The translations under genes were made by a program, and so were the position numbers. From Mobula hypostoma (lineage: Eukaryota): a stretch of DNA of 64,000 nucleotides. Each line of letters opens with the position of its first letter. The stretch's first letter is position 1. Below are positions 1,760 through 63,479 of this stretch, piece after piece. Where the stretch lies: contig NC_086107.1 of NCBI RefSeq assembly GCF_963921235.1, forward strand, positions 98,706,001 through 98,770,000, given 5' to 3'. Below the pieces are notes generated by a model. The model searched no databases. It was not told where the DNA came from and worked only from the letters and a program-made list of their open reading frames with translations.

Positions 1760-1978
1760 CTGGAGGAACTCAGCAGGCCTGGCAACATCTATGGAAAAGT
1801 GTAAACAGTCGATGTTTCGGGCTGAGAGCCTTCATCAGGACTCATGAAGAAGGATCTCGGCCCGAAACGTCGACTGTTTACTCCTTTCCATAGTTGCTGC
1901 CTGGCCTGCTGAGTTCCTCCAGCATTTTGCATGCGTGGTGCTTTGGATTTCCAGCATCTGCAGATTTTCTCATGTTTG
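1760..1978. mobile_element. Palindromic Penelope-like terminal-repeat derivative with two opposed degenerate hammerhead motifs
   Basis: 1760-1922 is an imperfect inverted repeat. Minus strand reads AGTC-CTGATGA-AGGCTCTCAGCCC-GAAA-CATC-GACTG (1806-1842); plus strand reads ATGAAGA-AGGATCTCGGCCC-GAAA-CGTC-GACTG. Confidence 0.75.
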
Positions 1979-11600: not shown

Positions 11601-11900
11601 CTCTTCGTCACCATCTGAACCTCTGCCAACAATAGCTGTGTCATCGGCAAATTTATAGATGGTGTTTGAGCTGTGCCTGGCCACACAGTCATGGGTGTTG
11701 AGAGGGAGAAGCTCAAGCACGCATCTTTGAGGTGCGCCAGTGTTGATTGTCAGCGAGGAGGGGGGTGTTATTTCTGATTCGCACTGACTGTTTCTCTCAA
11801 TGAAGTAGTCAAGGATCCAATTGTAGAGGGAGGTACGGAGGCCCAAGTTTTGAAGCTTGTTGATTAGTACTGAGGGGATGATGGTGTTGAATGCTGGGTG
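8635..11900 (-). mobile_element. Rex1/Babar-type LINE fragment (RT: ..KFADDTAIVG..LNRNKTKELMADFRK) split by an L1 insertion
   Basis: ORF 11358-11846 carries RT motifs (TGAPQRCVL, FADD); the sequence resumes colinearly on both sides of 9046-11108. Confidence 0.75.
9046..11108 (-). mobile_element. 5'-truncated L1-clade LINE (ORF2 RT C-terminal half + zinc-knuckle region)
   Basis: ORFs 9667-11133 and 9346-9663 are in one frame split by a TAG. KVSLHADDLLVYI (YADD variant), GGLALPNFRMYYWA and MFWSC motifs; AATAAA/A-rich tail. 17-bp TSD AGAT(A/G)GATGCCATCTTT at 9029-9045 and 11109-11125. Confidence 0.9.
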
Positions 11901-13148
11901 CCTTCTTGCTGCTCACTGACCTGATTTGGCTCCTGGTAAAGCAACATATTTATTTCAGAATTCCCAAGTTCCATGGCCTTGCTCCTCTTCAGCAGCCTTC
12001 CTTTTGATACATCTTCATTTCTGGACTCTTGACTTTAATTGCTCCTCTGTACAGCAATGTCTCCTGCTGGTGGTGCTTGGAAATCTGCACCCGCCTCCCT
12101 AAGCACCTCTTCCATCCTTAAAACTCTCCTTTTGCTGATCCCTTTTTGATTTAAGCTTGTTGTCACCTTATTTTCTCCTCTGGGTTGGTTCCAATTTTTA
12201 TCTAATTACTTCCTTTCAAAATGTGTGGAACTTTTTCTGCTGTTTAAGATGCTAAAAAAAAACCCACAGATAAAGAAAGATTGGCGAGTACGAGGAAATC
12301 TGCAGATGCTGGCTGCCTGGCCTGCTGCGTTCACCAGCATGTGCGAGTGATGTTTTTCAAACGTTATACCACAGTTGTTGTTCGCAGCATATATAAATGA
12401 CTTGGATGAGAATGAGGATATGAATAGTAATTGTGTAGATGAGATCCTCCAAGAGAACCACAACCTTTTAGTTAGGTTTGGAGGCTTGCATTGCTCAATA
12501 ACCAAGAGAGCTATGTTGGCTGGAGTCAGGGCTTTATATTTTGGCTCTTGGTAGGATCACCCATGTTAATCAGGTCAGAGGGTAGAGGATAGGCTCAGAG
12601 TGGCCCACCGATTCTCCAGGTTCGGGGGTTCAGCTCAGGGCTAACAACCTTGACTGGTAAAACAGAAACTGTTACGGAAACAGCAATGAAGAACCCTTCT
12701 ACATCTGTGTGCGGCAGTATTCCCAAGTCACCACCCAAGACTTGCACGACTGACAGTGAACCGAGAGGAAGCTACTTACACGGTGACAGGAGCTGTGAAC
12801 GCCACCAGGGATGGAGGATGTCCACTGCTGCCCTAAGCACCTGCGGTGTTACCGGCAGAAGGAGAAGACGAGATGAATGGTGCAGCTATGGGCAGTGAAG
12901 GAGCATAGTGGGAGATAGATCAGCTGGGAAATTGGTTGTAATGGTGGCAGATAGAGATTAACTCAGACAAGGGTGAGCTAATGCATTTTGTGAGATCGAA
13001 TTTGGGTAAAGCATGGAGGAAATATCAGGAAGTCTTGACGTACGGAGAGACCTTGAGCTCCCTGAAGATGGACGGGGTAATGTAAAAAGCTTTGGAGGAT
13101 CATGTTGCAGCTGTACACAGAGACTCATTCCACCAAGGTGCAACACAG

Positions 13149-27770: not shown

Positions 27771-29467
27771 TAGTTAAAAATGAAACTGTAGTCATCGAAA
27801 AACAGGAAAAATTGCTTCAAAGGATTTGTGACTTGCTTTACCTCAGAAATTGCAGTGCCCAGTACTTTGTTTTGCCCTGCCATTTGGTAAATACATAATA
27901 TAAAGGGTTGAAAATGTTCATACTGATTGGTTGAGAGTTTGGCAGAGCACAAGATTTATAGTCACCATCGGAATTCTAATTCTATTTTCAAGGGTGTGGA
28001 TATTACTTGTAACAAGTAACAGCAGAAGGAACACATATATTCAGTGAACAGGTTTCAGCTCACAGAGCAACTTCGCTGTGTGGCTTGCGAATCAGTTCAT
28101 AGACAAATCATATTAGGTCCTGATGTTATGTGTTCAGAACTTTCCCATGTAGTGTTGCCGGCGAGTAGGAATTCCTACTTTCATTCCATTTTTACAGAAT
28201 ATAACAGGGACAGTCACCATTTATTTTAGGGTTTTCACCCAGGCAATGACTCTTTAATTAGCTTGCATGATATCAGCGCTAAATAAATCGTTCTCAAAAA
28301 TCTCTGGCAAACATCTGCTAAGAAGCTGGCGTTCTTGTGGCAGTTTTCACCACAGCCCCTCCTCAGCAGTAGGCTCACTGTATTCCCAGATTGCACTCTT
28401 CCCTGGGGCTAAGTTGTGGGAGAGCCACTTCCAAGTTTAAGGAGTTCCATTTACCCGTGGTGAATCCATACGGCTGCAGGTTCGTGGACCTTTCATGGAG
28501 ACGCTAGACTGCAGATGCTGGAATTTGGGGCAACAAATTTGAATTAACTCAGCGGGTCGAGCAGCATCTACGGGTGCGTGCTGATGGAATTGTCAACGTC
28601 TCAATCAAACCCTTGCGTCAGATTCCTGAGTTGAGGATTCAAACTGAAACATTGTCAGTTCCTTACCTCCAGCAGGTGCTGTACTTCTGGATATTTTTAA
28701 TTTGTGTGGGCCATTGTGTCAGTGCACTGAAAGATGCCAAGAGGGTTTCTGCTAACTACAGGGCTGACCACTCTGCAGCTTGGCCTTTCCTTTCATCTTT
28801 CATGCAAAGATACGCACCTATTTTTTTAAATTCCAAATTCGCCTGCGAGTTTCCAGCTTTTGTCCCCCATCAATACCACACCACTACTTAACATATTCCA
28901 CAAATAATTGTGGTTAATCAGTGGCCGTTACATACCTTTGAGAATTGCCTTTGGTATTCTTGAATGAAAGTGGACATTCTGGCCAGAGGACTTAATCAGT
29001 GGTTTTAAATGGGCCCTTATGGGTTGTTTTGAGATGTTATCAATTACAATTGCATAAATCCAAACCTAAATCAGAGTATTTTCTTTCAGATCTACAACAG
29101 TATCTTATTCAATGCTGCTACTCCTTTCGTTTTTTTTCTCTCTCTCTCTCTCCCCTCAAAGTGCTGAGGTCAGGAATATCAATTTCCCATTCCTGCTCTT
29201 GTTGGAGCCAGAACTCAGTTACTGCTTCCGCAGCTTAATCCTATGTGGCAAGCTGAGTTTGCAAACTACCAACCCCGTTTTGTCATCATGTTGGTAATGT
29301 ATTCATGACCAACATGTGCTTGGCATTCCTCCCTCATCCGATCATTCCTCAATATTCCAACTTCTTATTTTTCCACTCCTCTGTTAGAAGTGTGTACTTC
29401 CATGCATTCTATGTTGTGATGCACAATTTAAACTCAACAATTAGATACTAATGATTTTTTAACATTT

Positions 29468-34659: not shown

Positions 34660-37131
34660 CAGGTTTCCCCCACCATCCGAAGGTAGAGCATTCCAATGAG
34701 ACAGTTCGTAAGCCAAGATGTCATAAAGTGAAGAAGCAATTACCATTTATTAATATGGGAAAGATTTTTGAGCGTTTCCAGACCCAAAAAATAACCTACC
34801 AAATCATGCCAAATAACGCATAAAACCTAAAATAACAATAACATATAGTAAAAGCAGGAATGGTATGATAAATACACAGCCTATATAAAGTAGAAATACT
34901 TGTTGCAATCATTGAAGCACAGTCTAGCGCAGCGAAAATCTCACGCATGCGCTCTCGGTGGAAGCACTGTCGGCGCAGACGCTGTCAGCAGAAACACTCT
35001 CTCCAGTAACCTTTAAGCTATGAGGCTGCCAAATCATACCAAATAACACAAAAATACACAACCTATATAAAGTAGAAATAATGTATGTGCAGTGTAGTTT
35101 CACTTACGGGAATCAGGATGGTGTGTTAGGCTGAGTCGTGGGAAATTGGAGTGGTGGGAGGTAGAGGAGACTGAGGTGTCATCTCATCGTAGTCTATTTC
35201 CAATAGGGCAGGCAGGTCATCATCTTCTACGTCTGCCTGCCTCGATGTCAAAGGTCGAGGTTCGTCGTCTGCTGTGGCTGATGTGCAAGGCTTGAAAATC
35301 GACGGTATACTTGACTGCTGAGCCTCGCACATTTTTAGATCATAGAGTTCTTTGTAAGCCCTCAAAACATCCTGAAAACCTGCCCTAAACCTACGTGCCC
35401 TTTCAAAATTAAAGTCAATCGCAGCGAAAACCTCACGCAACTGCTTCACGTTCAGTCCCTGGACGACTTCATTTTCGCTACTGCGTTTGGTTTTGATTGT
35501 TATCCTTCCCTCTTGCAATTGCATCAGCTGTTCATCTGTCAATTCTTGGTCATGGGATGCCAAAACCTCCTCAACATCATCTTCGTCAATTTCCACAAAC
35601 CCAGCCTCCTTAACCAAGATCACTATTGTCGTATTCATTGTTGATGGTTCGAAGCCTTTAAAATCGTTCACTGCTTTGGGACATAGTTTCCTCCAAACGC
35701 CATTTCTCATCGAGACTCTTAGCCTATCGAGAGCATCTCCAATGTTGGTGATCGCCAGTTTTATATTGTAGTCTTTCCAGATCTCTAGCAAAGATGCTTC
35801 GGAGTTGCCCTCTCTGTCAATAGCACTTACAATAAAACGCATCACATTTTGCGTATAGTAAGCCTTAATTGTGGCTATTAGGCCTTGGTCACACGGCTGC
35901 AGCAACGATGTCGTATTCGGCGGTAAGAACGCAACACGAATGTTACCGCCATACTCGGTAATCTCAGGCGGATGAGCAGCACAATTATCGACAATCACAA
36001 GACACCTATTATCGAGGTTATTTTCTCTGCAGTATTTTTCAACAAAAGGACTAACGTATCTGCTCATGTACTCAGAAAAAAGCACTTGGGTGTTCCAACT
36101 GCTTGGATGTGAACGGAACACAACGGGAAGTGTTTTCTTATCAACGCCTTTAAGTGCCCTCGGATTTTCTGAATGGTACACTAGTAGAGGCTTAAGGACA
36201 GCATCACCAGTGGCGTTAATAATAGGCATTGGGGTAAACCTGTCCTTTGATGCCTTGTGTCCCTTAGCCTGTTTTTCTTCTTTCGAAATAAATGTCTTAC
36301 TCGGCAATTTTTTCCAATAAATTGCAGTTTCGTCACATTAAACACTTGCTTATAAGAATAACCACCTTCTGTAATTATTTTCTTCAGTTGTGCTGGGAAC
36401 CTTTCGGCAGCTTCAGTATCAGCCGAAGCACCCTCTCCGGTAAATGTTAAACTATGAAGCTGCCCTCGCCTCAGAAACCGATCAAACCACCCGTGGCTAC
36501 CTTTAAATTCCACTTTCGCAACACTTTCATCACCATCGGCCAGTGGCTTCTGTTTCAGCTTATTAAAAAGACTGACTGATTTCTCCTTAAGTATAAGATA
36601 ACTTAAAGGAACACCGCGTTTTGTACACCCATCAATCCACTCAAGCAGTAGACTTTCCATTTTATCCATTACTGGATGCCGACTAAGAGAGACCACTTTG
36701 CTACAAGCAGAACCAACAGTAACATCGGCAGCTTTCAAGATTTTTTCTCTCTGCGTAGAAATAGTGCGAATGGTGGATGCAGGCAAGTTCAACGCACAGA
36801 CCATGTCCTTACTTCGTTCGCCATGATCGAAATGCTTAATTATGTCTAGTTTTACGCTAAGTGTAATACCCTTACGAGCTCTTTTAGGCTTTTCTGATAC
36901 CGTAGAACTCATCTTGCTAACAGATGCACAAAATAAATCGAGATAGAGCACATGTTTAAGCAATGGCGGCTAGAAAACAGTTCCAGGGCAGGAGCTTGGC
37001 TGCTCGGGGCGCGCGCTGCTTTTCTTGTAACAGTGAAAAAACTTTCTGTTAGTGAAAACAGGATACAAATGTAGGTCTTTCGTAACAGCGAGGTTTCGTA
37101 AAGCAAACGTTCGAAAAGCGGGGGACACCTG
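34660..37131 (-). mobile_element. Full-length Tigger/pogo DNA transposon
   Basis: TA-CAGGTTTCCCCC... and ...GGGGGACACCTG-TA imperfect TIRs with TA TSD, enclosing a transposase. Confidence 0.92.
35126..36912 (-). pseudogene. Tigger/pogo transposase (HTH_psq + CENP-B HTH + DDE_1), single frameshift
   Basis: MSSTVSEKPKRARKGITLSVKLDII..FKGSHGWFDRF..VFN/[C]DETAIYWKKLPSKTF..VDNCAAH..LQPCDQGLI; 1-bp deletion near 36336. Confidence 0.9.
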
Positions 37132-37803
37132 TAACTATATATAATCATTGCTAACCTGTTTTATATATCTGATTTTATATTACTGTATTGCATAGTTACT
37201 AATAAATATTATTAGTTAATAGCAATACCGGACTCCAAAGTGTTTTCTATTTCTGCTGGTTCTTTAACCTGTCATGGGGTACGTGACAGGTGACATGTAT
37301 GTACTTTGATAATAAAATTTACTTTGAGCTTTAATTCTGTGAAACCCAGAATTGCTCACCTTTTACTCTTGGTGTGATCTGCCCAGTGTAAGTGAAGGCC
37401 AGAATTCCATCAGTCTTTTTCATAATGTCTGAACGTTAACACATTTTAACAATTGGGTGCATAAACCATCAAGTCTTTTCAGATCTTTGCTGCTGCTTTG
37501 CAGTTTAGAGAGAATTCTTTTCTCCTTTTACAGGCTGAAATGGATGAGCTCACATTTGCTTGCACGGAGTTCCATCTATTAATATCTTTTTATAACTGGG
37601 AGCTTTTGTCTGGCTTCCATCTGCACTGCTTACAGTGTTGCATGTCTTTGTTATTGGATCACAGGATAGAAAGTCAGTTCTCCAAGTTACTTCTGAATAT
37701 AGTCACCAGTTGTTCCCTCAGCACAGTGTTGTGGCAAAGCACCTGTTTTGCCCTGCCTTCCTACTGTCTGGATCAGCCATTTACCTAATTAATTAAATAT
37801 TTT

Positions 37804-38215
37804 CACAACACGCTGGAGGGACTCAGCAGGCCGTGGAAATGATCAGTCGACGTTTTGGGCCGGAACCCTTCGTCAGGACGGTAGAGGGAAGGGGCAGAGG
37901 CCCTATAAAGAAGGTGGGGGGAGGGTGGAAAGGAGAAGGCTGGTAGGTTCCAGGTGAAAAACCAGTAAGGGGAAAGATAAAGGGGTGGGGAAGCAAAGCA
38001 GGGAGGTGATAGGCAGGAAAGGTGAAGAAGGAATAAGGGAAAGCACAGTGGGTAGTAGAAGGAGGCAGAACCATGAGGGAGGTGGTAGGCAGCTGGGGGG
38101 GGGGCAGAGTGAAATAGGGGTAGAGGAAGGGAGGGGGAGGGAATTACCGGAAGTTGGGGTATTCTATGTTCATACCAAGGGGCTGGAGACTACCTAGATG
38201 GTATATGAGGTGTTA
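37804..38215 (-). mobile_element. 5'-truncated Penelope-like element (GIY-YIG C-terminus + terminal repeat with hammerhead motif)
   Basis: Minus strand encodes HLIYHLGSLQPLGMNIEYPNFR*, then a pyrimidine tract and a hammerhead-like motif at 37844-37881 (GAAA>AAAA). 14-bp TSD TAATTAAATATTTT at 37790-37803 and 38216-38229. Confidence 0.85.
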
Positions 38216-39739: not shown

Positions 39740-39959
39740 TATCTAGGTGTTCATTTTTTCACTGTTTATTCTTAAATACAAGCTTAAATAACTTGCTGGC
39801 AACAGAAACTGAGACAGAAAATATTGTCAACACTCGACAAGTCAGGCATTATCTATGGAAAGAGGAGTAGCTAATGTTTCAGCTTTAAGGTTGTTTATCA
39901 GAAGGGGAAAAGAAAAATGTTAATTGCCGGAAAGGTAAGGGGAAGGGTGGGTGGGAGAA

Positions 39960-40480
39960 ATAACCCATTTCAGTTCCCTTTCCCATTCCAACATGTCAGT
40001 CCACGGCCTCCTGTACTGCCATGATGAAGCCACACTCAGGTTGGAGGAGCAACACCTTATATTCTGTCTGGGTAGCCTCCAACCTGATGGCATGAACATC
40101 AATTTCTCAAACTTCTGGTAATTGCACCCCCCCCCTTCACCATTCCCCATTCCTGTTTTCCCCCTCTCTCCTATCTCATTACCTATCCATCACCTCCCTC
40201 TGGTGCTCCTCCTCCTTTCCACGGTCTTCTATCCTCTCCTGTCAGATTCCCCCTTCCCCAGCCCTTTATCTCTTTCACCAATCAACTTCCCAGCTCTTTA
40301 CTTCACCCCTCCCCCAGTTTCTCCTTGTACTTCTTCCTCCCCTCCCCCAACCTTCTTACTCTGACTTCTCATTTTCTTTTTCAGTCCTGATAAAGAGTCT
40401 CAGCCCGAAACGTCGACTATACGCTGTTTCATAAATGCTGCCTGGCCTGCTGAGTTCCTCCAGCATTTTGTGTGTATTGC
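39960..40480 (+). mobile_element. 5'-truncated Penelope-like element
   Basis: 39966-40121 reads HFSSLSHSNMSVHGLLYCHDEATLRLEEQHLIFCLGSLQPDGMNINFSNFW*. Hammerhead-like motif at 40382-40418 (CTGATAA variant). Confidence 0.85.
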
Positions 40481-41414
40481 CTTGAAATAATGTCCATGTT
40501 AGCTTAGGCCTGGGAAAGAAACTGAGAGAGTGAGTTGGTAATGGGGACAATTAGAGGATGACAAAAGTGTGATGGGTTATTTACAACAGGTCGGGGTGTG
40601 CTAATGAGGCTACACCGTGCTTTGATGGAACACATGAGTTGTGTTAGGCCTCATTATAACAGCGCGGGCCAGTGTGGGGTGGGGAATTAATGTGGCAAGC
40701 AGCAGGAAACTCGGGATTGCCCCATGACTGAGTGCAGGTTCTCCACAGAGCGGTCGTTCAATCTGCATGTCGTTTTTCTAAATGTGAAGATCACCTTGTG
40801 AACCGAATGCAGTGCACTAAATCAGAATTACCCCTGAATTGTTGCTTCACCCTGAACGACAGAGGTCAGGGGTGAAAGGTCAGTGGTCGCACTTGCTGAT
40901 ACAGGGGAAGAGTGATGCGGGACACAAGTGGTTGGTGGCGGTGGGGGAGTGTTGGACCCGGACTTGAAGGGAATACCATTTCCAAAGTGCTGAAGATGTT
41001 CTGGTGGTGGAATGTTGGAAATCATTTAGGCTGATTCACTGATGAATTAGTGTGGTCTTGCTGTCAGCCCCAGACTGACAAGCTGAAAAGGTCATGTGTA
41101 AACTGAAAAGCAACGTGGCTTCAAGCGCAGCCAGTTTTCTTGTTTAAGTTTACTTTTGACAGCAGGGAACCACAGTCACAATTTCACAACCTCATCTTCC
41201 TGGAAGAGGAGAACATACCAGAAGATGTAAGAGGTCCTGATTTTCTGAAAGAAAGGAATCTTGCAATGGTCTGTGTTAATCTGATGGTGTTAACCACAGA
41301 GGCCTTCCTGCTGTCAGCTTCAGGGAAAATCATTGTAAGGATTGAAGAGCTGCCCCTCTGGAGCATAGTGACTCATTGCAAGCTGCTCCCTGCAGAAATT
41401 CCTTCTATTATAAT

Positions 41415-41876
41415 TAGGGTCGCCAACTTTCTCACTCCCAAATAAAAGACAAAAGTAGCAGTCAAATACGGGACACTTGTGTCTACCCCGAGAAAGACTA
41501 CCATGACCATGAACCCTTGCGCGGGCACCTGACGTGCGCATGCGTGTACGTGCCGATTTTTTTTTCTACAAATCAGTTTTGGCTTAATCTTCCCGATTCT
41601 GCTTTTACTATATGTTAGTGTTATTTTAGGTTTTCTGTGTTATTTGGTATGATTTGGTAGGTTATTTTTTGGGTCTGGGAACGCTCAAAAATTTTTCCCA
41701 TATAAATTAATGATAATTGCTTCTTCGCTTTACACCATTTCGGCTTACGAACGGTTTCATAAGAATGCTCTACCTTAGCAGGGGAAATACAGGACAAGAG
41801 CGGTCCCATATGGGACAAACCAATTTAGCCAAATATACGGGATGTCCCGGCTAATACGGGACAGTTGGCAACCCTA
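41415..41876. mobile_element. hAT-type MITE carrying a captured Tigger terminal segment
   Basis: TIR TAGGGTCGCCAACT / AGTTGGCAACCCTA; perfect 8-bp TSD ATTATAAT (41407-41414, 41877-41884). Confidence 0.88.
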
Positions 41877-42917: not shown

Positions 42918-43053
42918 CAAACAAGGGAAACTTTGCAGATGCTGGAAATCCAAGCAATACACACACACAATGCTGAAGGAGCTCAGCAGGCCAGGCAACG
43001 TCTATGGAAAAGAGTACAGTCGACATTTCGGGCCGAGACCCTTCAGCAGGACA
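42918..43053 (-). mobile_element. Penelope-like terminal repeat fragment with degenerate hammerhead
   Basis: Minus strand reads GTC-CTGCTGA-AGGGTCTCGGCCC-GAAA-TGTC-GACTG. Confidence 0.7.
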
Positions 43054-43518
43054 AAGGGAATCCCACATCTACTGCACACTGTCCTGCTAGAGGCTGGAGA
43101 ACTGCCCCACTAGACCATGGTGACTCAGTGCAGGCTGCTCCCTGCAGAAATTCCTTCTATTATAATTGACCTCAGTGCACTGTGTAATGATTTTATCTGT
43201 TTGAACTGTACGCAAGGCATGTGACTTCTAGTCTATAGAAGTTCGTCAAAGTTTTAGATGACCTGTCATATCTTTTAAAACTTGTAAGAAAGTAGAGGCT
43301 TTGATACTGGAATCAAATAAAGGGCAAACTCGGCAAAGGCACCAGAGTTCCTTCTCTGAAGGATGTAGTAAACCCGACAGGGTCTGGTCACCATAACTGA
43401 AACTGGCTTTTAGGAGATGACAGGGTTTTAAGAGCTGGAGCATATCGGTGGAAAATCAGCTGTAAAGTTTGTTTAGAAAGCTTACATCTAGCATGACTAA
43501 TAAAAACAGAAAATACTT

Positions 43519-43763
43519 AAACAACACACATCAAAGTTGCTGGTGAACGCAGCAGGCCAGGCAGCATCTCTAGGAAGAGGTACAGTCGACGTTTCCGGCC
43601 GAGACCCTTCGTCAGGACTAACTGAAGGAAGAGCTAGTAAGAGATTTGAAAGTGGGAGGGGGAGGGGGAGAGATGCTGCCTGGCCTGCTGCATTCTCCAG
43701 CAACTTTGATGTGTGTTGCTTGAATTTCCAGCATCTGCAGAATTCCTCGTGTTTACGTTTTTT
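43519..43763. mobile_element. Short Penelope-like derivative with inverted terminal arms
   Basis: Arms ~43522-43572 and ~43668-43718 are inverted; candidate TSD AAATACTT (43511-43518, 43764-43771). Confidence 0.75.
43583..43620 (-). ncRNA. Minimal type-I hammerhead ribozyme motif (catalytic core boxes intact; one stem II mismatch)
   Basis: Minus strand reads TAGTC-CTGACGA-A-GGGTCTCGGCCG-GAAA-CG-TC^GACTG: stem I, CUGANGA, stem II, GAAA, palindromic ACGU stem III, GUC cleavage triplet. Confidence 0.7.
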
Positions 43764-45020
43764 AAATACTTTTAACAGTTAATGTTTCAGAGTCATAGTC
43801 TTTCACCAGAGGTTGAACCAAGTTTTCAACGTGAACAGATGCAAGGTTTAGGCTGCAGTTAGTAGAGGAGTAAAGGACAAAAAAAAATTAACAGTATGCC
43901 AGAAATTGAATGATATTAGGAATGATACTGGAAGGAAAATGAAGATGGTTATGGGACACGATAAAAACAAAAGATGAATTTAGCAAGGTTGTAAATGAGA
44001 ATTTGAGAATCATCTGAACCTGAACTCTGAGCAGATCATCCAAACAATCATTCACCAGCTCAACAAAATCTTGACAAGCATGCCAAAGTCCTGGCAGACT
44101 TCCACCTCTTCCACCAATGAATATTGGCCCAGTCGAGTGTGACCATGTAACTTGGCTGATGACTCTAGTCCTCAAAATCAGGTTCTGTGGTTATTAATTG
44201 GATCGACGGAGTGCACAGATAATCAATTGAATATGGGGCTTTCTGCCTGCTGTAAATCTACCTGCACAGGTGTGCACATGGGGAGTTGGGGCTGATTTGG
44301 TTTGCTACAGACGTACTTATTTGGAGGCACAAAGCTATAGGTGCTGTAACCTGGAGCAGCAGTCAGTCCAGTGGAGGAACTCAGCATTGAGCAATACCTG
44401 TAAGAGGAAAGAAATCATCGACACAGCATAGCAGTTAGCATGATGCTATTAGAGCTCAGGGTGTCGGAGTTCAAAGTTTAATTCCGGCGTGCTCTGTAAG
44501 AGAATTTGTACAGTCTTCCCGTGAGCGCGTGGGTTTCCACCGGGTGCTCCAGATTCCTCCCACAGTCTAAAGATGTACCCAGATAGTATGTTAATTGGTC
44601 ATTGTAAATTGTTCTGTTTTAATAGGGTTTAATAGGTGGACTGCTGGGCAGAGTGGCTCGTTGGGCCAGAATGGCATCTTCCACTTTGTATCTCTTAATA
44701 AGTTTCAACCCTGCATTGGGACAATTCATCCTGAATGTTAACAATTTCTTCCCCCACCCCCAGCAGATATTCATTCTGAACTTGGGGGTGGATTGCTTTG
44801 TATCATGAATCACAGGCACCATAAAAGCAGAGTACAGGTGCTGTAAAAGGCTACTAGCAAATTAGTATCAAAGCAAGAGCGTGACTTTCAACAAAATGGA
44901 TTGAAATCAAACACTTCAAAAAAAGGAGTTTTCAACAAATTAGAAGCACTATTTTTAAAGGAGCTGCAACTTAGAGGATGAAATTTTAAAAGCCACTGAG
45001 GCAAGAGATTCAAGCATTCA

Positions 45021-45433
45021 GTTGGAGGAGTAACACCTCATATACCGTCTGGGTAGTCTCCAGCCCCTTGGTATGAACATAGAATTCTCCAGCTCCGGTA
45101 ATTCCCTCCCCCTCCCTTCCCCTATCCCTATTTCACTCTGTCCCCTCCCCCAGCTGCCTATCACCTCCCTCATGGTTCCACCTCCTTCTACTACCCATTG
45201 TGCTTTCCCCTATTCCTCCTTTACCTTTCCTGCCTATGCCCTCCCTGCTTCCCCTCCCCCACCCCTTTATTTTTCCCCTTACTGGTTTTTCAACTGGAAC
45301 CTACCAGCCTTCTCCTTCCCACCCTCCCCCCACCTTCTTTATTGGGCCCCTGCGGGTCTTGGCCCGAAATGTTGATTGTTCGTTTCCACGGATGCTGCCC
45401 GACCTGCTGAGTTCCTGCAGCATGTTGTGTGTG
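45021..45433 (+). mobile_element. 5'-truncated Penelope-like element, same subfamily as 37804-38215 but in the opposite orientation
   Basis: LEE*HLIYRLGSLQPLGMNIEFSSSG; the 5' half of the hammerhead is deleted. Confidence 0.8.
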
Positions 45434-50964: not shown

Positions 50965-51650
50965 ACTCATGTTCCCCTTAAATATTTCACCTTTCATTGT
51001 TAACCCATGACCTCTAGTTCTTATCTCACCCAACCTCAATAAAAAAGCCTGCTTGTATTTACTCTGTATATCTCCCTCATAATTTTGTATACCTTTATCA
51101 AATCTCCCCTCATTCTCTGGGCTCCAGGGAATGAAGTCCTAACTTATTAAGTCCTAACTTATTAAGTCCTAACTTATTAAGTCCTAACTTATTAAGTCCT
51201 AACTTATTAGGTCCTAACTTATTAGGTCCTCACTTATTAGGTCCTCACTTATTAGGTCCTCACTTATTAGGTCCTCACTTATTAGGTCCTCACTTACTAA
51301 GTCCTTACCTGTAACTCGGGTCCCCGAGTCCCAGCAATGTCATCATAAATTTTCTCTGTACCCCTTCAGTTTTATTGGTACGTTTCCTTGTAGGTAGATG
51401 ACCAGAACTGCACACAACTTCTCATAACATCCCAACTCCAGTCCTCAATCCTCTGATTTATGAATGTCAAAAGTTCTCTTTATGACCCTGTGATGCCACT
51501 TTGAAGGAATTATGAATCTGTAATCCCAGATCCCTCTGTTCTGCTGCACTCTCGGTGTCCTAACGCTCGTCATGTAAGACCCGCCCTGGTTTGGCCATTC
51601 AAAGTTCAACATTTTGCGTATTGGACAGAACACAGTGCAACAATTTGTGC
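50965..51650 (-). mobile_element. CR1-type LINE remnant (others at ~3540-3720, 13690-13950, 48590-48990, 53420-54165, 54590-56200)
   Basis: Typical CR1 ORF2 3' peptides across the copies (LFSMQRRRLKGDLIAVNKI; GLDRVD..MFP..ESKTRGHSL..EMRRNFFSQ). Confidence 0.65.
51134..51304. repeat. 15-bp minisatellite, 11 units
   Basis: 5x AAGTCCTAACTTATT, 1x AGGTCCTAACTTATT, 5x AGGTCCTCACTTA(T/C)T. Confidence 0.95.
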
Positions 51651-56244: not shown

Positions 56245-58440
56245 GTCACCATCTCTGAGGTTCTATCCTGGGCCCAACATATTGATGCAATCACTATTAA
56301 GGCATGCCAGCAGCTGTATTTTATTAGCAGTCTGAGGAGATTTGGTATGTCGCCAAAGCCTAGCAAATTTTCTGCAGATGTGTGCGAAGGTCGTTCTGAG
56401 TGGTTGCATCACTGCCTTGTTCGGAAAGTTCAATGCACAGGATCCAAAAACAAAACTGCAGAGGGTTGTGGATTCAGCTAGTTCCATCATGATCACCAGA
56501 GTCCCCACCACTGAGGACATCTTCGTTAGGCAATGCGTCAAGAAGACAGCATCCATCATTAATGACCTTCACCACCCCCCCCCCCCCCCCCAGGATATGC
56601 CATCCTCTCATTGATACCATCAGGGGTTAATGACTGTCACTACCCAGGACATGCCATCCTCTCATTGATACCATCAGAGGTTAGTGACCTTCACCCCCCA
56701 GGACATGCCATCCTCTCATTGATACTATCAGGGGTTAATGACTGTCACTACCCAGGACATGCCATCCTCTCATTGATACCATCAGGGGTTAATGACCTTC
56801 ACCCCCCAGGACATGCCATCCTCTCATTGATACCATCAGGGGTTAATGACTGTCACTACCCAGGACATGCCATCCTCTCATTGATACCATCAGAGGTTAG
56901 TGACCTTCACCCCCCAGGACATGCCATCCTCTCATTGATACCATCAGGGGTTAATGACTGTCACTACCCAGGACATGCCATCCTCTCATTGATACCATCA
57001 GGGGTTAATGACCTTCACCCCCCCAGGACATGCCATCCTCTCATTGATACCATCAGGGGTTAATGACCTTCACCCCCCCAGGACATGCCATCCTCTCATT
57101 GATACCATCAGGGGTTAATGACTGTCACTACCCAGGACATGCCATCCTCTCATTGATACCATCAGAGGTTAGTGACCTTCACCCCCCAGGACATGCCATC
57201 CTCTCATTGATACCATCAGGGGTTAATGACTGTCACTACCCAGGACATGCCATCCTCTCATTGATACCATCAGGGGTTAATGACCTTCACCCCCCAGGAC
57301 ATGCCATCCTCTCATTGATACCATCAGGGGTTAATGACTGTCACTACCCAGGACATGCCATCCTCTCATTGATACCATCAGAGGTTAGTGACCTTCACCC
57401 CCCAGGACATGCCATCCTCTCATTGATACCATCAGGGGTTAATGACTGTCACTACCCAGGACATGCCATCCTCTCATTGATACCATCAGGGGTTAATGAC
57501 CTTCACCCCCCCAGGACATGCCATCCTCTCATTGATACCATCAGGGGTTAATGACCTTCACCCCCCCAGGACATGCCATCCTCTCATTGATACCATCAGG
57601 GGTTAATGACCTTCACCCCCCCAGGACATGCCATCCTCTCATTGATACCATCAGGGGTTAATGACTGTCACTACCCAGGACATGCCACCCTCTCATTGAT
57701 ACCATCAGAGGTTAGTGACCTTCACCCCCCAGGACATGCCACCCTCTCATTGATACTATCAGAGGTTAGTGACCTTCACCCCCCAGGACATGCCATCCTC
57801 TCATTGCCACCATCAGAGGTTAGTGACCTTCACCCCCCAGGACATGCCATCCTCTCATTGATACCATCAGGGGTTAGTGACCTTCACCCCCCAGGACATG
57901 CCACCCTCTCATTGATACTATCAGAGGTTAGTGACCTTCACCCCCCAGGACATGCCATCCTCTCATTGCCACCATCAGAGGTTAGTGACCTTCACCCCCC
58001 AGGACATGCCATCCTCTCATTGATACCATCAGAGGTTAGTGACCTTCACCCCCCAGGACATGCCACCCTCTCATTGATACCATCAGAGGTTAGTGACCTT
58101 CACCCCCCAGGACATGCCATCCTCTCATTGCCACCATCAGAGGTTAGTGACCTTCACCCCCCAGGACATGCCACCCTCTCACTGCCACCATCAGGGATGA
58201 GGTATGGAGCCTGAAGACACACACACACCAGACATTTCAGAAGCAGCCTTTTTCTCTCCGTCATCATATTTCTGAATGGTCCATGAACTCTACCTCACTA
58301 ATTTGCTCTCCTGTCAAGCTATTTAGTTACTTGTTTGTTTATATCTTATTGCAGTCTATAGTAATTTTTTGTGTCTTGCACCGTTCTTCCACTGCAAAAC
58401 AAATCTGACAACATATGTCAGTGATAATAAACTCGGTTCT
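56245..58440 (+). mobile_element. Rex1/Babar-type LINE 3' fragment hosting the 54-bp array
   Basis: TISEVLSWAQHIDAITIKACQQLYFISSLRRFG before the array; PSGMRYG and the 3' tail after it. Confidence 0.75.
56561..58199. repeat. 54/55-bp tandem array, 30 units, with higher-order structure
   Basis: Unit AATGACCTTCACCCCCCAGGACATGCCATCCTCTCATTGATACCATCAGGGGTT alternates with the variant AATGACTGTCACTACCCAGG... Confidence 0.97.
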
Positions 58441-60053
58441 TATTTGGTTAACAATATTTAAGAGGCACTTAGTCAGGTACGTAAGAGGTTGTGTGTCGGA
58501 GGATGAGATTAGTCTAAGTTGGCATGGTTGACAAAGACATTACGGGCCGAAGGCCAGTTCCTGTGCTGTACTGTTCCACATTCTCTGTTGAATGGCTGGC
58601 TGAGACTGCATCACTGCAGCAGGACCCTTGCGCTGTGATGACTGGCCAAACAGCGCATTGTCACGTGAATCCAACGCTGGGCGAGTTGACCTCTTGACCC
58701 ACTCCACCAACCCACTTGGTCTCAGCTTTGGACTGAGACCCAACCTCTGTCACGTGTGTCCGTAATGAAATCAAGCAACCCCATCCTATCTCCTGATTTG
58801 GGCTGAGAAAGTGTGACCAAAGTCACCTTGGAGTGCAAATAGGCTGACTGATAAATGAGGTTATATTAACATTGATTTGGCCATTTTTCAAACTTGGTCT
58901 GAGGTAAAAACCTTCTACCTTTGATGCTTAGCTAAACAAACAATCAGGATTATTAGCTTGGGAATATTGGACACATGAAAATGTAAAAATAATAATGGTT
59001 CAATGGTTCCATTTAATATGAGAGAATGTATAGAGTATACAACCTGAAATTCTTACTCTTCACAGACATTCTCGAGGCAGAAGAAAAACCCCGAAGAATG
59101 AATGACACAAAAATTGTTAGAACCCCAAAGCCTCCTGCCTCCCTCCCATGCACAAGCAGCCTCCTCCACCCCAACTTATTCTTACAGAGAGCATCAGCAC
59201 ACCCACCACCCACCACCTACCTTGCAAGCAAGAGTAAAGCTCTAAAGAGAGACCATAGTCTACAGTCCATCAAAAACTACTGTTTGTTCCAAAAGTCTTG
59301 ACATCCCTCGGGCTCTCTCACTCTCGCTAACAAGGGAGAGAAAGATATCCACTGCGAGCGGGGAGACAAGCAGTCACTATTTCGATGTTACAGTCTGTAG
59401 CACCACTTTTATTTCGAGTTCCCCCGACTCAATAATCAGCAGCAAACTCACCATCAAGAGAGAGAGAGAGAGAACACGATCCCCCGAGTACAGAAGCCTT
59501 GGACAGCCCCACTCACCATCTCGATGTGCCGGCTCCCCGCAACCCTTCAGTTCATGAGACTGGTGAGAAATCGGGTCCACACAGCCACTCTAGGCTGCAC
59601 CCCGAACACACCTGTCTTCCAGGACGCTCCTGGAGGTGTCGAAAACATGGCCGATTGGCGAGCGCCAAGAATGGGAACATGCCCGCCATGCAGAGCTACA
59701 GTTTGAGTGCAGCTGTAGATCACGGACTCCTCTGACAGGACCCCAGCCAGCTTGAAAAGGAAAATAGGGACATTAGAAAAAGAATTTAAACCGTTCTGCT
59801 GATGGGCTGGGGAAGTTGCCCTATGGTACCATTCTTAGCTCTGCCCACAGTTTCCTCAGCTTAAACCGTTCCTTCTACCATTCTAGGACTACCGTTAACG
59901 TTACTGACACGATTTTAGTGGGGTGAGGTTCGAACCGCATCAGATTCATTGATTTTGGAATAATTGTATCTTTGCCAGAGTTATGTAATGTCCTACTTGC
60001 TCACCCCTGATCTGCCGTGTTGATCTGATTATTTCTGTCCTGTTTTCCTTCAG

Positions 60054-60883
60054 GTGTAAGGAGTGTTCTAGCACTTTGCTCCCTGGAGCCTACAAGCCAG
60101 GTGCCCATTCAGGCACTTTCGTATGTACACACCATCGAGGACGGGTCGCTGGGCAGCCGCAGCGACCTGTGTCCGGTCCGAGCCTGCCGTCGTACCATGG
60201 ATCTCTACCAGCTCAGATAGTTTCATCAGCTAGTCCACGGACACCGCATCATTCCCAGGTGCCGACAGAAGCATCCGATAACTATGGTCCCAGCCCGATG
60301 AAAAGAGCGGAGCTAAATGCGGAGGAAAGTGGTGAGAAGTCATGCAGTCCAGGGAGCGGCCTTTCACCCTCAGTGCCTTCTGAGCACTATCATCCCAGTA
60401 CTGACAAAATCCCAAAACTTTCCAACAGCACAGACTTAAAGGAAACATCAAAACCTAGTGTGGAGTCTCAAATGCCAGAGGCAACGCGGAGGTCAGCGGA
60501 CCAGTCTGTTTGCAAAGATCAAACTGAGAATGGTATCAGTAAGCAGCCTGAATCAGGGACACAGCCTGACCTGCTTATTTCCCCGAATGAGCAGCAGCTG
60601 GCAGTAGTGATGGAGACGGACATCGCTGCCGAGAGCACCAACACCTCAGAGCCGCCCGCCAGATGCAACGACCAAACCCCAGACACAAGCCACACAAAAG
60701 TGAGCAAAGAAGCTGCTGAAGAGCAGCTGAAAACTCTTCCTGTTCCCGTTCCAAGGAAAACCGTTGACTCTGCAACGTCACCCGTGGCAACACCACGCCC
60801 CGTACCTCGGCCGCGAGTCAGCTTTGGCGGTGGGACGAGTGAAACCTCTGTCCAGAGATCGGAGACTGGCGAACTTGCAAATG
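60054..60883 (+). CDS. MICALL1: MICAL-like protein 1, coding exon 6 (LIM second finger + Pro/Ser-rich region); gene continues beyond window
   Basis: Strong polypyrimidine + CAG acceptor; (R)CKECSSTLLPGAYKPGAHSGTFVCTHH...PVPVPRK...PRPVPRPR...ELAN(G); overlaps ORF 60076-60891. Probable donor GTACAT at 60884. QRYL, STLLPGAY and DFDSLSK favour MICALL1 over MICALL2. Confidence 0.8.
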
Positions 60884-61056
60884 GTACATAATGCTCCTGT
60901 ATTAATGGCCAGATGTGTTATCGCAGCACTGTTAGCATGGGCTTTTGTCTTCGTGCAGCTCGGAGTGAGGTAAAGAGAGGATGGCAGGCTGAAAGTTGAG
61001 TGCTGGATGTCTGTACACGAGCTCAGCAAAAGTGGCTTTGCGGGGGAGTTAGAATT

Positions 61057-61279
61057 AAGCAACACACGTAAAAGTTGCTGGTGAACGCAGCAGGCCAGGC
61101 AGCATCTATAGGAAGAGGTACAGTCAACGTTTCGGGCAGAGTCCCTTCATCAGGACGAAGGGTCTTGGCCCGAAACGTCGAATGTACCTCTTCCTATAGA
61201 TGCTGCCTGCACTGCTGCGATCACCAGCATTTCTTATGTGTTGCTTGAATTTCCAGCATCTGCAGATTTCCTCGTGCTT
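61057..61279. mobile_element. Palindromic Penelope-like derivative with back-to-back hammerhead motifs
   Basis: 61057-61246 is a long inverted repeat; flanking direct repeat GAGTTAGA(A/G)TTAA (61046-61058, 61280-61292). Confidence 0.8.
61121..61156 (-). ncRNA. Minimal type-I hammerhead ribozyme motif (core boxes intact, GUU triplet, 3-bp stem I)
   Basis: Minus strand reads GTC-CTGATGA-A-GGGACTCTGCCC-GAAA-CG-TT^GAC. Confidence 0.6.
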
Positions 61280-61573
61280 GAGTTAGAGTTAAAGTTGGGA
61301 GTGTTTAGGGGCTGGTTGAAAGAAGTCACCATTGCTAATGTTGTAAAGAAGGGAGTGCAAACATAAGATACTGTAGTTAGATTTAATGTGGTGAGACTAA
61401 TAAATTTAATAAATGCCAGGCCAGAGTGAGTGTAAAGGATAAATATAATGTCTGAAAGCCATCTAGGAGCTGAGGGTGAAGGGGCAACCCTCCTCTCCTC
61501 CTTGCTCCATCAGTTTCTCAATTGCCACCCTCACCTTCCCTCCCCTAGCTTGTGTAACCCGTACATCCTCTTT

Positions 61574-62066
61574 CACTCTTCCTCAGTTCACCAGTCACCT
61601 CAGGCTCCTGTCTCAGCACTCCACTCTTCACTCTTCCTCAGCTCACCAGTCACCTCAGGCTCCTGTCTCAGCACTCCACTCTTCACTCTTCCTCAGCTCA
61701 CCAGTCACCTCAGGCTCCTGTCTCCACACTCCATTCTTCAGTCTTCCTCAGCTCACCAGTCACCTCAGGCTCCTGTCTCCACACTTCACTCTTCCTCAGC
61801 TCACCAGTCACCTCAGGCTCCTGTCTCAGCACACCACTCTTCACTCTTCCTCAGCTCACCAGTCACCTCAGGCTCCTGTCTCAGCACTCCACTCTTCACT
61901 CTTCCTCAGCTCACCAGTCACCTCAGGCTCCTGTCTCCACACTCCACTCTTCACTCTTCCTCAGCTCACCAGTCACCTCAGGCTCCTGTCTCAGCACTCC
62001 ACTCTTCATTCTTCCTCAGCTTACCAGTCACCTTCAGGCTCCTGTCTCAGCACTCCACTCTTCACT
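61574..62066. repeat. 55-bp pyrimidine-rich minisatellite, ~9 units
   Basis: Unit CACTCTTCCTCAGCTCACCAGTCACCTCAGGCTCCTGTCTCAGCACTCCACTCTT; one unit is shortened to 48 bp. Confidence 0.95.
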
Positions 62067-63479
62067 TTGTGCTCGCTGCCTCCCCTCTCCACTCTCAGTC
62101 CTGACACAGGGTTTCGATCCAAGATGTTAGCAGTTCCACTCACCAGCCCCTCAAATGGTGCCTGACTCTGAGTTCCTCCAGTTGGTCCAGATGTTTGCAT
62201 CTGCAGTCCCTTGGGCCTCCAACTTTTCACGTCGACCTGGAACAAGTTTTGCCCTTTATTGAACTTTTTACCATTGCTGGAAGCACTGAGGCTAATCTCC
62301 CAAACAGTGCTGAAGGAAGCTGCTGGCAATCAAATCTGAAGAAAACAACTGGCAATCAGCCATTTGGCCAAAAGGAAGTCCTCCAAATCTGGGGCTTGCT
62401 GACAGATGGCATTATGCCTGTCTCTATGCTTTGTTGCTATACTTCAAAGACCAGTCTCGATAAAGTTTTTTCATATCACACTGGGAAAATTACCTTGTAT
62501 AGGAGTGGATCCCTGTGCATTTTAATCAGAATTTTTAGCAGATCAGGAGGCAAAGGAGAAAGCAAATTTTTCTATAATTTCAAAAAATTATTTCTTAATG
62601 TCTTGATATGCTTACATTGCAGCCTGTGATAGGAGCCATAGCTCTACCTTCTGTCAAACCCTGTCAATGTATTTCCACAGTAGGACGTCATTGCCTGAGG
62701 CCCAGTTGTCTCGACAATGTTGCACCCAATTCCAATGGACAGAGAGACAGTGAGACTGTTCTGTCCTGTTGTTGAGTTAAGACGGCAGGCAGTGTTGGAA
62801 GCAGAACAGTTGGTTCCTGATATACTAAATGATTTTGCAGTAATCCCAGCAAAGAAGCAGGACATTACAGCTGAATGGTTCCTGCTGAGGATACAGTTAT
62901 CTCAGAGCAACTGTTTTCCAGGTGATCCTGGCAGTTTCAGAAAGTACTGGTTTATTAAGTTACAGTGAAAAATTTGTGTCGCCTACAGTTTATACGGAAC
63001 AAATCATCATACAGTGCATTGAGCTAGAATAAGATAAAACAATAGTTTTCCTATGTACAATACGCCACTGGCGTTTAGAGCAGAAAAAAAAGGTATCCAT
63101 CTCTGGTGGTGTTCAGGGCTTCCTTCATCACGTCAGTAGCTTCCTTTCAGTTTTCACTACTGTCAGCATGTAAGTCCCAGATTGAGACTCAGGAATACCA
63201 TCACACTCAGATGTAGAAGGAATCTTCATTGCTGTTTCTGTAACAATTTTGTTTTACCACTCAGGGTTGTTAGCCCTGAGCTGGAGCCCCTGAACCTGGA
63301 GGACCGCTAGACCACTCTCAGTCTGGCCTCAACCGCTTGCCTTGTTTGGCATGGGTGACCCTATCAAGAGCCAAAGCATTGAGCCCTGACTCCAGCCACC
63401 ATAGCTCTCCAGGGTCACTGAGGCACACAAGCCTCCAAACCCTACAAGATTGTGGTCCTTCTGGAGGAAAACAATAGCA

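What the first reader, a model, noticed from the sequence alone, without database searches (positions are those of the whole stretch)
61057..61279. ~220-bp palindromic non-coding element with back-to-back hammerheads and its own TSD
Seen: a ~190-bp hairpin whose centre is two opposed hammerhead motifs (minus copy core-intact, plus copy 5'-truncated), followed by a 3' tail and flanked by a 12/13 direct repeat. The same hairpin design recurs at 1760-1978, and a variant with a candidate TSD occurs at 43519-43763. There is no coding sequence. Inference: these are either extreme 5'-truncation/inversion products of PLE integration or a self-propagating non-autonomous, retrozyme-like family mobilised by PLE reverse transcriptase. 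Differing inversion junctions among the three copies lean toward independent formation.
Basis: partly seen in the sequence, partly recalled or inferred. Interest (0 to 1): 0.7.

Follow-up and report, generated by a model that had tools for sequence, protein, structure and literature searches.

The report
Palindromic Penelope-element stump in ray intron
This small hairpin-shaped insert in a ray gene's intron is two tail-ends of a Penelope-like jumping gene joined head-to-head during one insertion, an already described by-product rather than a new self-replicating ribozyme element.

Summary
The hairpin is real (z about -18). The flanking repeat is a true target-site duplication: a contig from a related organism lacks exactly the element plus one copy of the 11-13 bp repeat. 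The element is two 5'-truncated 3' ends (pLTRs) of a very abundant Neptune-type Penelope-like element (PLE), joined head-to-head at a 3-nt microhomology, with the 33-nt PLE 'tail' on one side only. It lies in a MICALL1 intron of a ray. This is the published PLE insertion architecture (inverted pLTR, one-sided tail, short TSD) at minimal size. All 4 palindromic copies in the window have different junctions, and public contigs show many further junctions, mostly in 1-6 contigs per run. It is not a retrozyme. The hammerheads face opposite ways, one lacks core bases, the other has GUU and a 3-bp stem I, and the hairpin disfavours the ribozyme fold by 32 kcal/mol. Likely mechanism (inferred): both nicked strands prime reverse transcription at the two internal start sites and the cDNAs are joined. 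A small unit-amplified subfamily is not excluded. The scan reported the same on another (shark) genome.

The parts
61046..61058 (+). Left copy of the target-site duplication (11-13 bp; last 2 nt ambiguous, also matching the element end)
   Evidence: empty allele in organism C joins 61045 to 61280 (table 8, record 9)
61059..61156 (-). Inverted arm: 5'-truncated PLE pLTR read on the minus strand, ending at the tail-start site (no tail)
61123..61156 (-). Minimal type-I hammerhead motif: 3-bp stem I, CUGAUGA 61153-61147, 3-bp stem II, GAAACGUU 61133-61126; predicted cut after 61126; GUU instead of GUC
61154..61156 (.). Inversion junction: 3-nt microhomology (GAC) shared by both arms
   Evidence: sequence; nhmmer hits overlap at 61154-61156
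61154..61246 (+). Direct arm: 5'-truncated pLTR starting inside the hammerhead core (lacks C3, U4 and the 5' strand of stem I)
61247..61279 (+). 33-nt PLE 'tail', present on this arm only
   Evidence: family-wide loose ends at 61057, 61276 and 61280 (table 7)
61280..61292 (+). Right copy of the target-site duplication
60052..60885 (+). Host exon of MICAL-like protein 1; the element lies about 160 nt into the following intron
   Evidence: 100% identity to P0006, MICAL-like protein 1 of Mobula hypostoma; exon map
1760..1978 (+). Second palindromic copy, other subfamily; junction 9 nt longer; left arm ends in a CA/C-rich repeat; no TSD found
43511..43771 (+). Third palindromic copy (43519-43763) with exact 8-bp flanking repeat; inverted arm runs about 55 nt into the 3' UTR; direct arm starts downstream of the hammerhead
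12287..12341 (-). Fourth, very short palindromic copy: about 30-nt inverted arm plus tail fragment; no hammerhead
   Evidence: (score 41 vs null max 21)
39963..40487 (+). Longer copy linking the pLTR family to a PLE ORF: GIY-YIG C-terminal fragment, stop, pyrimidine-rich 3' UTR, hammerhead pLTR
37802..38215 (-). Single-arm 5'-truncated copy (GIY-YIG end, 3' UTR, pLTR without tail) with an exact 14-bp flanking repeat

Best explanation
A single, aborted insertion of an autonomous Neptune-type Penelope-like retroelement into a MICALL1 intron. Shown: both arms are the element's 3' end (pLTR); they are head-to-head, joined at a 3-nt microhomology; one arm ends at the family's tail-start site and the other at its tail-end site 33 nt further on; the unit is flanked by an 11-13 bp duplication that is single in an empty allele. 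Inferred: the GIY-YIG endonuclease made staggered nicks 11-13 bp apart. Each nicked strand primed reverse transcription, one at each of the two internal start sites that bound the tail. Both cDNAs stopped after about 100-130 nt, near the 5' edge of the hammerhead, and were joined by microhomology (a twin-priming-like route, probably on two pLTR copies or two RNAs). The palindrome is therefore built anew at each insertion. It is now an inert relic whose hammerheads cannot fold.
For: Empty site with one repeat copy in organism C; insertion shared by organisms A and B (table 8, records 9, 24, 31). pLTR family continuous with a GIY-YIG C-terminus in the window; its homologue P0001 has PF01541 (E 4.6e-4, below the curated cut-off), PF26215 and a C-X4-C-X2-C linker. 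4 of 4 palindromes in the window have different junctions, among 22 profile hits that are mostly single-arm (reversed-sequence control 1 hit at E 0.42). 12 different skip-type joints among the 15 of 219 shown, each in 1-6 contigs per run. Two family-wide 3' termini running into long unrelated flanks: 302 contigs at 61057, 283 at 61276 and 420 at 61280 in run X1 (table 7). Same architecture in print: inverted pLTR, optional 31-bp tail, 8-10 bp TSD, head-to-head (PMC3846280 passages; PMC8557442 passages). PAc protein nicks and extends both strands, is predicted dimeric, starts at two sites bounding the tail and does not need hammerhead cleavage (PMC11167929). Hammerhead fold costs 31.8 kcal/mol against the hairpin.
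Against: Three X1 pieces from other loci span this junction without gaps (records 5-7; 13-15 differences in 91-101 nt; single-copy depth 13-19), so same-length centres recur. Two joints have high depth in one contig of run X5 (211 and 170 against 3.6 at this locus). Only 32 of about 138,900 pieces and 15 of 219 joints were shown, copies with this exact junction would not be listed as joints, and joint positions can be shifted by this copy's private mismatches. The arms differ by 12 substitutions plus a 2-nt gap in 93 columns, more than the 3-5 expected from flank divergence to organism C; this fits two templates but also an older palindrome copied whole. The coding link is shown for the other subfamily (40374), not for this one. 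The dual-priming step is not tested; PMC3846280 favours self-priming on an antisense template.
Confidence: 0.85

Rival explanations
1. Same origin (a PLE integration by-product), but the inverted arm arises by fold-back self-priming or template switching of one cDNA or antisense RNA rather than by priming from both nicked strands. This is a rival for the inferred step only and overlaps the best explanation.
For: Proposed for rotifer PLEs from palindromes at inverted junctions (PMC3846280 passages). The arms of the 43519 copy are nearly identical (3 of 50 columns differ). Junction microhomology fits either route.
Against: The two arms end at two different, family-wide fixed sites that correspond to the two RT start sites measured for PAc. 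Fold-back gives identical arms at birth, and the 61057 arms are more different than the age bracket predicts, though not decisively once CpG and clustered changes are allowed for (P 0.07-0.36).
Confidence: 0.3
2. A non-autonomous palindromic family: one or a few master palindromes are transcribed and re-inserted whole by PLE proteins, keeping their junction.
For: Three gapless junction-spanning pieces from other loci in X1; two high-depth joints in X5; excess arm divergence. pLTR sequences suffice for mobilisation in trans, and putatively non-autonomous PLEs exist (PMC3846280, PMC8557442 passages).
Against: No two of the 4 window palindromes share a junction and they belong to two subfamilies. 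The spanning pieces are only about 85% identical although this insertion is younger than a 3-5% split. 5' ends cluster near the hammerhead in single-arm copies too, so similar centres can recur independently.
Confidence: 0.1
3. A retrozyme-like element: hammerhead self-cleavage releases unit-length or circular RNA that PLE reverse transcriptase re-inserts.
For: Carries PLE-type minimal hammerhead motifs; animal retrozymes are derived from PLE pLTRs and occur in a chondrichthyan (bioRxiv 10.64898/2026.07.22.740005).
Against: Not a tandem repeat. Motifs are on opposite strands, so no transcript carries two; minimal hammerheads need a same-sense partner (PMC4209133). Plus copy lacks C3/U4; minus copy has GUU and a 3-bp stem I. 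The hairpin sequesters both. Element ends do not coincide with the cut site. Two of the 4 palindromes lack one or both motifs.
Confidence: 0.02
4. Two independent pLTR insertions, one landing beside or in the other, or a later local inversion or repair event.
For: Family is very dense (22 profile hits in 64 kb); arms are 13% different.
Against: One TSD encloses both arms and the empty allele lacks both; no second TSD is evident; the design recurs 4 times in the window with the tail always on one arm.
Confidence: 0.03

Closest known systems
EN+ Penelope-like element insertions with inverted pLTR, optional 30-40 bp tail and TSD (Arkhipova et al. 2013, PMC3846280; Craig et al. 2021, PMC8557442; passages read)
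   Same: Head-to-head inverted 5'-truncated copy at the 5' end, tail at one end only (33 nt here, 31 in Pen2a_Av), short TSD (11-13 bp here, 8-10 bp there), microhomology junctions, AT-rich targets.
   Different: Here the direct copy is cut down to about 125 nt, so no ORF lies between the repeats and the whole insert is one hairpin. Such minimal palindromes were not found described in searches (CC-licensed PMC and bioRxiv only; Repbase and Arkhipova 2006 not seen).
Neptune clade of PLEs
   Same: Homologue P0001 of the window's GIY-YIG fragment has C-terminal EN and a C-X4-C-X2-C linker, the motif that PMC8557442 gives for Neptune and Nematis.
   Different: Clade not confirmed by an RT tree; Nematis not formally excluded; no intact ORF in the window.
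[quoted passage not shown]
   Same: CUGANGA core, extra nucleotide after A9, G10.1-C11.1 pair, no helix III with palindromic ACGU; that paper also notes pairs of such motifs close together on opposite strands in Schistosoma.
   Different: Here the two motifs abut or overlap at the junction; one is truncated and the other decayed.
Poseidon element PAc of Anolis (Frangieh et al. 2024, PMC11167929; parts 1-2 of 4 read)
   Same: Two RT start sites bounding the tail; both strands nicked and extended; inserts derive from uncleaved RNA.
   Different: Different clade; that study did not address inverted products in the text read.
Metazoan non-LTR retrozymes (Cervera and De la Pena 2020, PMC7229834, abstract and Discussion read; Li et al. 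2026 bioRxiv, parts 1-3 of 5 read)
   Same: Non-coding, PLE-related type-I hammerhead, 150-400 nt size range.
   Different: Retrozymes are same-strand tandem repeats processed to monomers and circles; this is a dispersed single inverted pair.
LINE-1 twin priming (recalled, not read here)
   Same: 5' inversion made by priming from both nicked strands, microhomology at the inversion point, TSD.
   Different: L1 arms are non-overlapping parts of one RNA, so no palindrome results; here both arms copy the same segment.

Membership tests
EN+ PLE insertion (truncated/inverted) | Sequence is the 3' end (pLTR) of an RT + C-terminal GIY-YIG element | tested here: met
   Homologous pLTR copies at 40374, 45354 and 37806 are continuous with a GIY-YIG C-terminus; shown for sister subfamilies, inferred for this one
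EN+ PLE insertion (truncated/inverted) | Inverted 5'-truncated copy head-to-head at the 5' end | tested here: met
EN+ PLE insertion (truncated/inverted) | 30-40 bp tail at one end only | tested here: met
   33 nt at 61247-61279; two termini family-wide
EN+ PLE insertion (truncated/inverted) | Short TSD, single at the empty site | tested here: met
   record 9
Neptune clade | CX2-5CxxC linker between RT and EN | tested here: met
   In homologue P0001, 81% identical over 52 aa to window 39963-40118; not in the window itself
Neptune clade | RT phylogeny | not tested
   No RT sequence confirmed in the window
Minimal type-I hammerhead (PLE type) | Core boxes and stems I/II | tested here: inconclusive
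   Family pattern fits: 81% of cells paired vs 18-46% for slid controls, but no compensatory changes in 9 copies. This element: minus copy has boxes but GUU and 3-bp stems, plus copy truncated. No Rfam hammerhead hit at E<=1
Minimal type-I hammerhead (PLE type) | Self-cleavage | not testable with these tools
   Fold prediction disfavours it by 31.8 kcal/mol
Non-LTR retrozyme | Same-strand tandem units, each with a complete hammerhead | tested here: not met
   No tandem array at the element; motifs opposed
Non-LTR retrozyme | Unit-length linear or circular RNA | not testable with these tools
   Only assembled contigs were offered; no RNA run laid
Amplified non-autonomous family (SINE/MITE-like) | Many dispersed copies sharing ends and internal junction | tested here: inconclusive
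   0 shared junctions among 4 window copies; many different joints, but 3 gapless spanning pieces and truncated tables; no genome held

The most novel reading that the evidence does not exclude
A minority of these palindromes are re-mobilised as whole units. Because the element is symmetrical, transcripts of both strands each carry a PLE start site, so the two nicked target strands could prime on opposite-strand RNAs and give complementary cDNAs that anneal into a full copy. That would be a hairpin-shaped non-autonomous PLE family with no need for second-strand synthesis. A less novel but likelier value (about 0.4): the many independent palindromes in ray genomes record two-strand priming at the two tail-bounding sites and a cDNA stop near the hammerhead's 5' edge, which makes the unresolved second-strand step of PLE transposition testable by counting.
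Probability: 0.08. Interest if true: 0.6.

Novelty: new member of a known kind. Interest (0 to 1): 0.25.

Why it matters
As a single locus it is an ordinary transposon relic. As a class it is a clean, minimal footprint of PLE integration: both ends, the junction and the TSD fit in 250 bp, with an empty-site control. How PLEs make their inverted repeats and complete the second strand is described as unresolved in PMC8557442 and PMC11167929, and a ray genome with tens of thousands of family pieces (62,115 laid in run X1) could test dual priming against fold-back statistically. Such inserts also place roughly 90-bp double-stranded RNA stems in host pre-mRNAs (here MICALL1); any effect on editing or splicing is untested.

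Tried and rejected
Own genome: not held, so no genome-wide census. Rfam scan at E<=1: no hammerhead family hit, 4 weak unrelated hits. Pattern scan of viral contigs: 0 hits. Pattern scan of metagenome contigs: 27 loci, all chance 20-28 nt matches with no further homology. Pfam on 4 window fragments: 0 families; identification came through homologues. Organism D: no cover at 60976-61011, and one piece starts at 61280 with 21 unaligned letters; compatible with an empty site but not counted as proof. Possible inverted arms at 28635-28682 (E 0.11; score 18 vs null 19) and 39832-39881 (E 0.08, other subfamily) were not significant and were left out of the count of 4. TSD search: 3 of 11 loci reached p<=0.01 (61057, 43519, 37802); 1760, 12287 (6 bp, p 0.11) and 6 others did not. 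Idea that 5' ends sit at the GUC cut site: not seen in the window; one old copy starts near it (model position 29). Idea that the 55-bp minisatellite at 61572-62066 derives from the PLE 3' UTR: no similarity above shuffles. Suspected PLE RT remnant near 21.9 kb: no tblastn support. Literature search for PLEs in elasmobranchs returned nothing relevant among the 20 listed. No paper supplements were read; they may hold examples of such short inverted inserts.

Full report
OBSERVATION. The stretch 61057-61279 folds into one long hairpin on either strand (-150.1 and -151.0 kcal/mol; z -18.05 and -17.44; 0 of 200 shuffles as stable). The arms are 61064-61151 and 61154-61241, 85% complementary. The minus strand carries CUGAUGA (61153-61147), a 3-bp stem II and GAAACGUU (61133-61126). 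The plus strand starts inside the core at G5 (61154). The arms share the 3 letters GAC at 61154-61156. A 33-nt extension (61247-61279) follows the plus arm only. A 12/13 repeat flanks the unit (61046-61058, 61280-61292); 0.13% of 3000 random flank pairs gave as long a match.

CONTEXT. The upstream exon is 100% identical over 279 aa to MICAL-like protein 1 of Mobula hypostoma (P0006). Six exon matches run along the plus strand from 611 to 60885, so the element lies about 160 nt into an intron, and the other three palindromes also lie between matched exons. No genome was held.

WHAT THE ARMS ARE. A profile built from 14 window copies gave 22 hits at E<=0.5, against 1 hit (E 0.42) in the reversed window. 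Most copies are single-arm. Three longer ones (40374, 45354, 37806) continue upstream through a pyrimidine-rich UTR into a coding fragment. The 52-aa piece at 39963-40118 is 74-85% identical to five ray proteins. The longest, P0001, has a GIY-YIG match (PF01541, E 4.6e-4, 20.9 bits, under the 22.6 cut-off), precomputed PF26215 and a C-X4-C-X2-C linker before the nuclease. PMC8557442 gives that linker as the mark of Neptune and Nematis (passages). The arms are thus the 3' end (pLTR) of a Neptune-type PLE. The coding link is shown for sister subfamilies and inferred for the subfamily of 61057 and 43519. The family's hammerhead pattern matches the minimal type-I motif of PMC4209133: 81% of cells pair against 18-46% in slid controls, but with no compensatory change in 9 copies, and Rfam found no hammerhead.

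EMPTY SITE. Four of 23 listed runs were laid on 60400-61455 at 85% likeness. In run X17 (organism C) one 1508-nt contig matches 61455-61280 at record positions 583-755 and 61045-60400 at 756-1401, with no letters between (table 8, record 9). It lacks exactly 61046-61279: the element plus one copy of the repeat. The TSD is therefore real, 11-13 bp, because the last AA also matches the element end. Run X5 (organism B) enters the element from both flanks (records 24, 31), so A and B share the insertion. Flank differences: B 9 in 687 (plus an 18-nt insertion) and 0 in 202; C 21 in 646 and 8 (plus a 3-nt gap) in 176. Run X18 (organism D) has a piece starting at 61280 with 21 unaligned letters, compatible with an empty site but not proof. 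C and D share many differences, so they may be one lineage, and precise deletion between the repeats is not formally excluded. Insertion is the simpler reading. The contig's letters were not shown, so which version of the mismatch is ancestral is unknown.

TWO 3' ENDS. In the window, copies end either at the tail start or about 33 nt later. In run X1, 62,115 pieces were laid. Loose ends of median length 255 lie at 61057 (302 contigs), 61276 (283) and 61280 (420), with A/T-rich consensus (table 7; 24 rows shown, 1039 not). This is the PLE tail: a 30-40 bp extension often at one end only (PMC8557442), shown for the anole element PAc to lie between two internal RT start sites (PMC11167929, parts 1-2 of 4). 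At 61057 and 43519 the inverted arm ends at the tail start and the direct arm at the tail end. PMC3846280 describes the same arrangement around full ORFs: head-to-head inverted pLTR, 31-bp tail, 8-10 bp TSD (passages).

FAMILY OR BY-PRODUCT. Four palindromes in the window pass a local inverted-arm test (scores 111, 41, 91, 122 against null maxima 18-21; 15 copies tested): 1760, 12287, 43519, 61057. All four junctions differ, they span two subfamilies, and two of them lack one or both hammerheads. In the contigs, 15 of 219 joints were shown. Three are opposite-strand joints that I read as ordinary single pLTR-plus-tail copies. Twelve are different skips, each in 1-6 contigs per run, with left-arm limits from -2 to +69 and right-arm starts from about +3 to +100 relative to the core. 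Against my reading: three X1 pieces from other loci cross this junction without gaps (13-15 differences in 91-101 nt, depth 13-19, like the single-copy 16). Two joints have depth 211 and 170 in single X5 contigs (locus depth 3.6). Only 32 of about 138,900 pieces were shown, exact-junction copies would not appear as joints, and private mismatches can shift joint positions. Same-length centres can arise independently because 5' ends cluster at the hammerhead's 5' edge also in single-arm copies (5022, 42918). A small amplified subfamily is nevertheless not excluded.

ARM DIVERGENCE. The 61057 arms differ by 12 substitutions and a 2-nt gap in 93 columns, more than either arm differs from the 43519 inverted arm (8 and 10). 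With flank divergence to C of 3.3-5.2%, 3-5 differences are expected (P 0.0001-0.004 for 12). Three are CpG transitions and six cluster in about 30 nt of the right arm; for 8 non-CpG changes or 6 events P is 0.01-0.36. The 43519 arms differ at 3 of 50. This leans towards two different templates but is inconclusive.

RIBOZYME READING. Metazoan retrozymes are same-strand tandem repeats processed to monomers and circles (PMC7229834, abstract and Discussion; bioRxiv 10.64898/2026.07.22.740005, parts 1-3 of 5). Minimal motifs need a second same-sense copy (PMC4209133). Here no strand carries two motifs and there is no tandem array. The plus copy lacks C3/U4. The minus copy has GUU, where about 55% of laid family depth shows the GUC letter (table 3). 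Forcing the hammerhead fold costs 31.8 kcal/mol (-119.2 vs -151.0), and the complementary arm is transcribed first. Element ends do not match the cut site (+28). Expression was not tested.

MECHANISM. Shown: identity of arms, junction microhomology, asymmetrical ends at two family-wide sites, TSD, empty allele. From the literature: PAc nicks and extends both strands, is predicted dimeric, and uses uncleaved RNA. Inferred: staggered nicks, priming from each strand at one of the two start sites, early stop near the hammerhead's 5' edge (possibly the RNA's 5' end), microhomology joining. Because both arms copy the same segment, two pLTR copies or two RNAs are needed, unlike L1 twin priming (recalled). 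Fold-back self-priming (PMC3846280) is the main rival for this step.

NOVELTY. The architecture is published. I did not find the ORF-less minimal palindrome described in searches, which cover only CC-licensed PMC and bioRxiv; Repbase, Arkhipova 2006 and paper supplements were not seen. Earlier scan notes (unchecked) reached the same reading for five palindromes in a shark genome (e1-7858806) and reported the hammerhead family many times in this genome (41 notes fit, 8 shown). My reading was recorded before these look-ups. Verdict: new member of a known kind; interest 0.25.

Noticed in passing
window 37802-38215 (-): Single-arm PLE 3' fragment (GIY-YIG end, UTR, pLTR without tail) with an exact 14-bp flanking repeat (p about 0.001); 91% identical over 324 nt to the copy at 45031-45353.
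   Followed up: partly
window 1841/1843, 5021, 43052-43062, 61154/61156: 5' ends of several copies cluster at the 5' edge of the hammerhead, not at the GUC cut site; may mark the RNA 5' end or an RT stop (table 5c).
   Followed up: partly
window 39815-39960 next to 39963-40487: An older, different-subfamily pLTR remnant in inverted orientation abuts the 5' truncation point of the 40374 copy (E 0.08): either a two-template inversion or a nested insertion.
   Followed up: partly
window 28499-28682: Old copy with a possible inverted arm and junction at the hammerhead (E 0.11); not significant.
   Followed up: partly
window 56586-58196 and 61572-62066: Two minisatellites in MICALL1 introns: 54 bp x 29.7 and 55 bp x 9.1; the second ends just upstream of an old hammerhead pLTR at 62098-62212 but shows no similarity to PLE 3' UTRs.
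   Followed up: partly
window 35126-36969 (-): Frameshifted Tigger/pogo-like transposase: CENP-B_N, HTH_Tnp_Tc5 and DDE_1 domains, with long inverted arms at 34673-34896 and 41560-41783 nearby (relation not checked).
   Followed up: partly
window 9667-11151 (-) and 11358-11912 (-): Two non-LTR reverse transcriptase fragments (RVT_1); related dispersed 3' ends at 6964, 19452, 29580, 47957.
   Followed up: partly
window 60542 (exon): Organism B has an in-frame 18-nt insertion in the MICALL1 exon (one contig, depth 3.6, table 4).
   Followed up: no
P0003, P0005: PLE GIY-YIG C-terminal fragments appear inside annotated ray proteins named ATP synthase subunit C3-like and VKORC1-like 1 isoforms: exonisation or annotation artefact.
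   Followed up: no
window 51101-51325: 15-bp tandem repeat, about 11 or more units.
   Followed up: no
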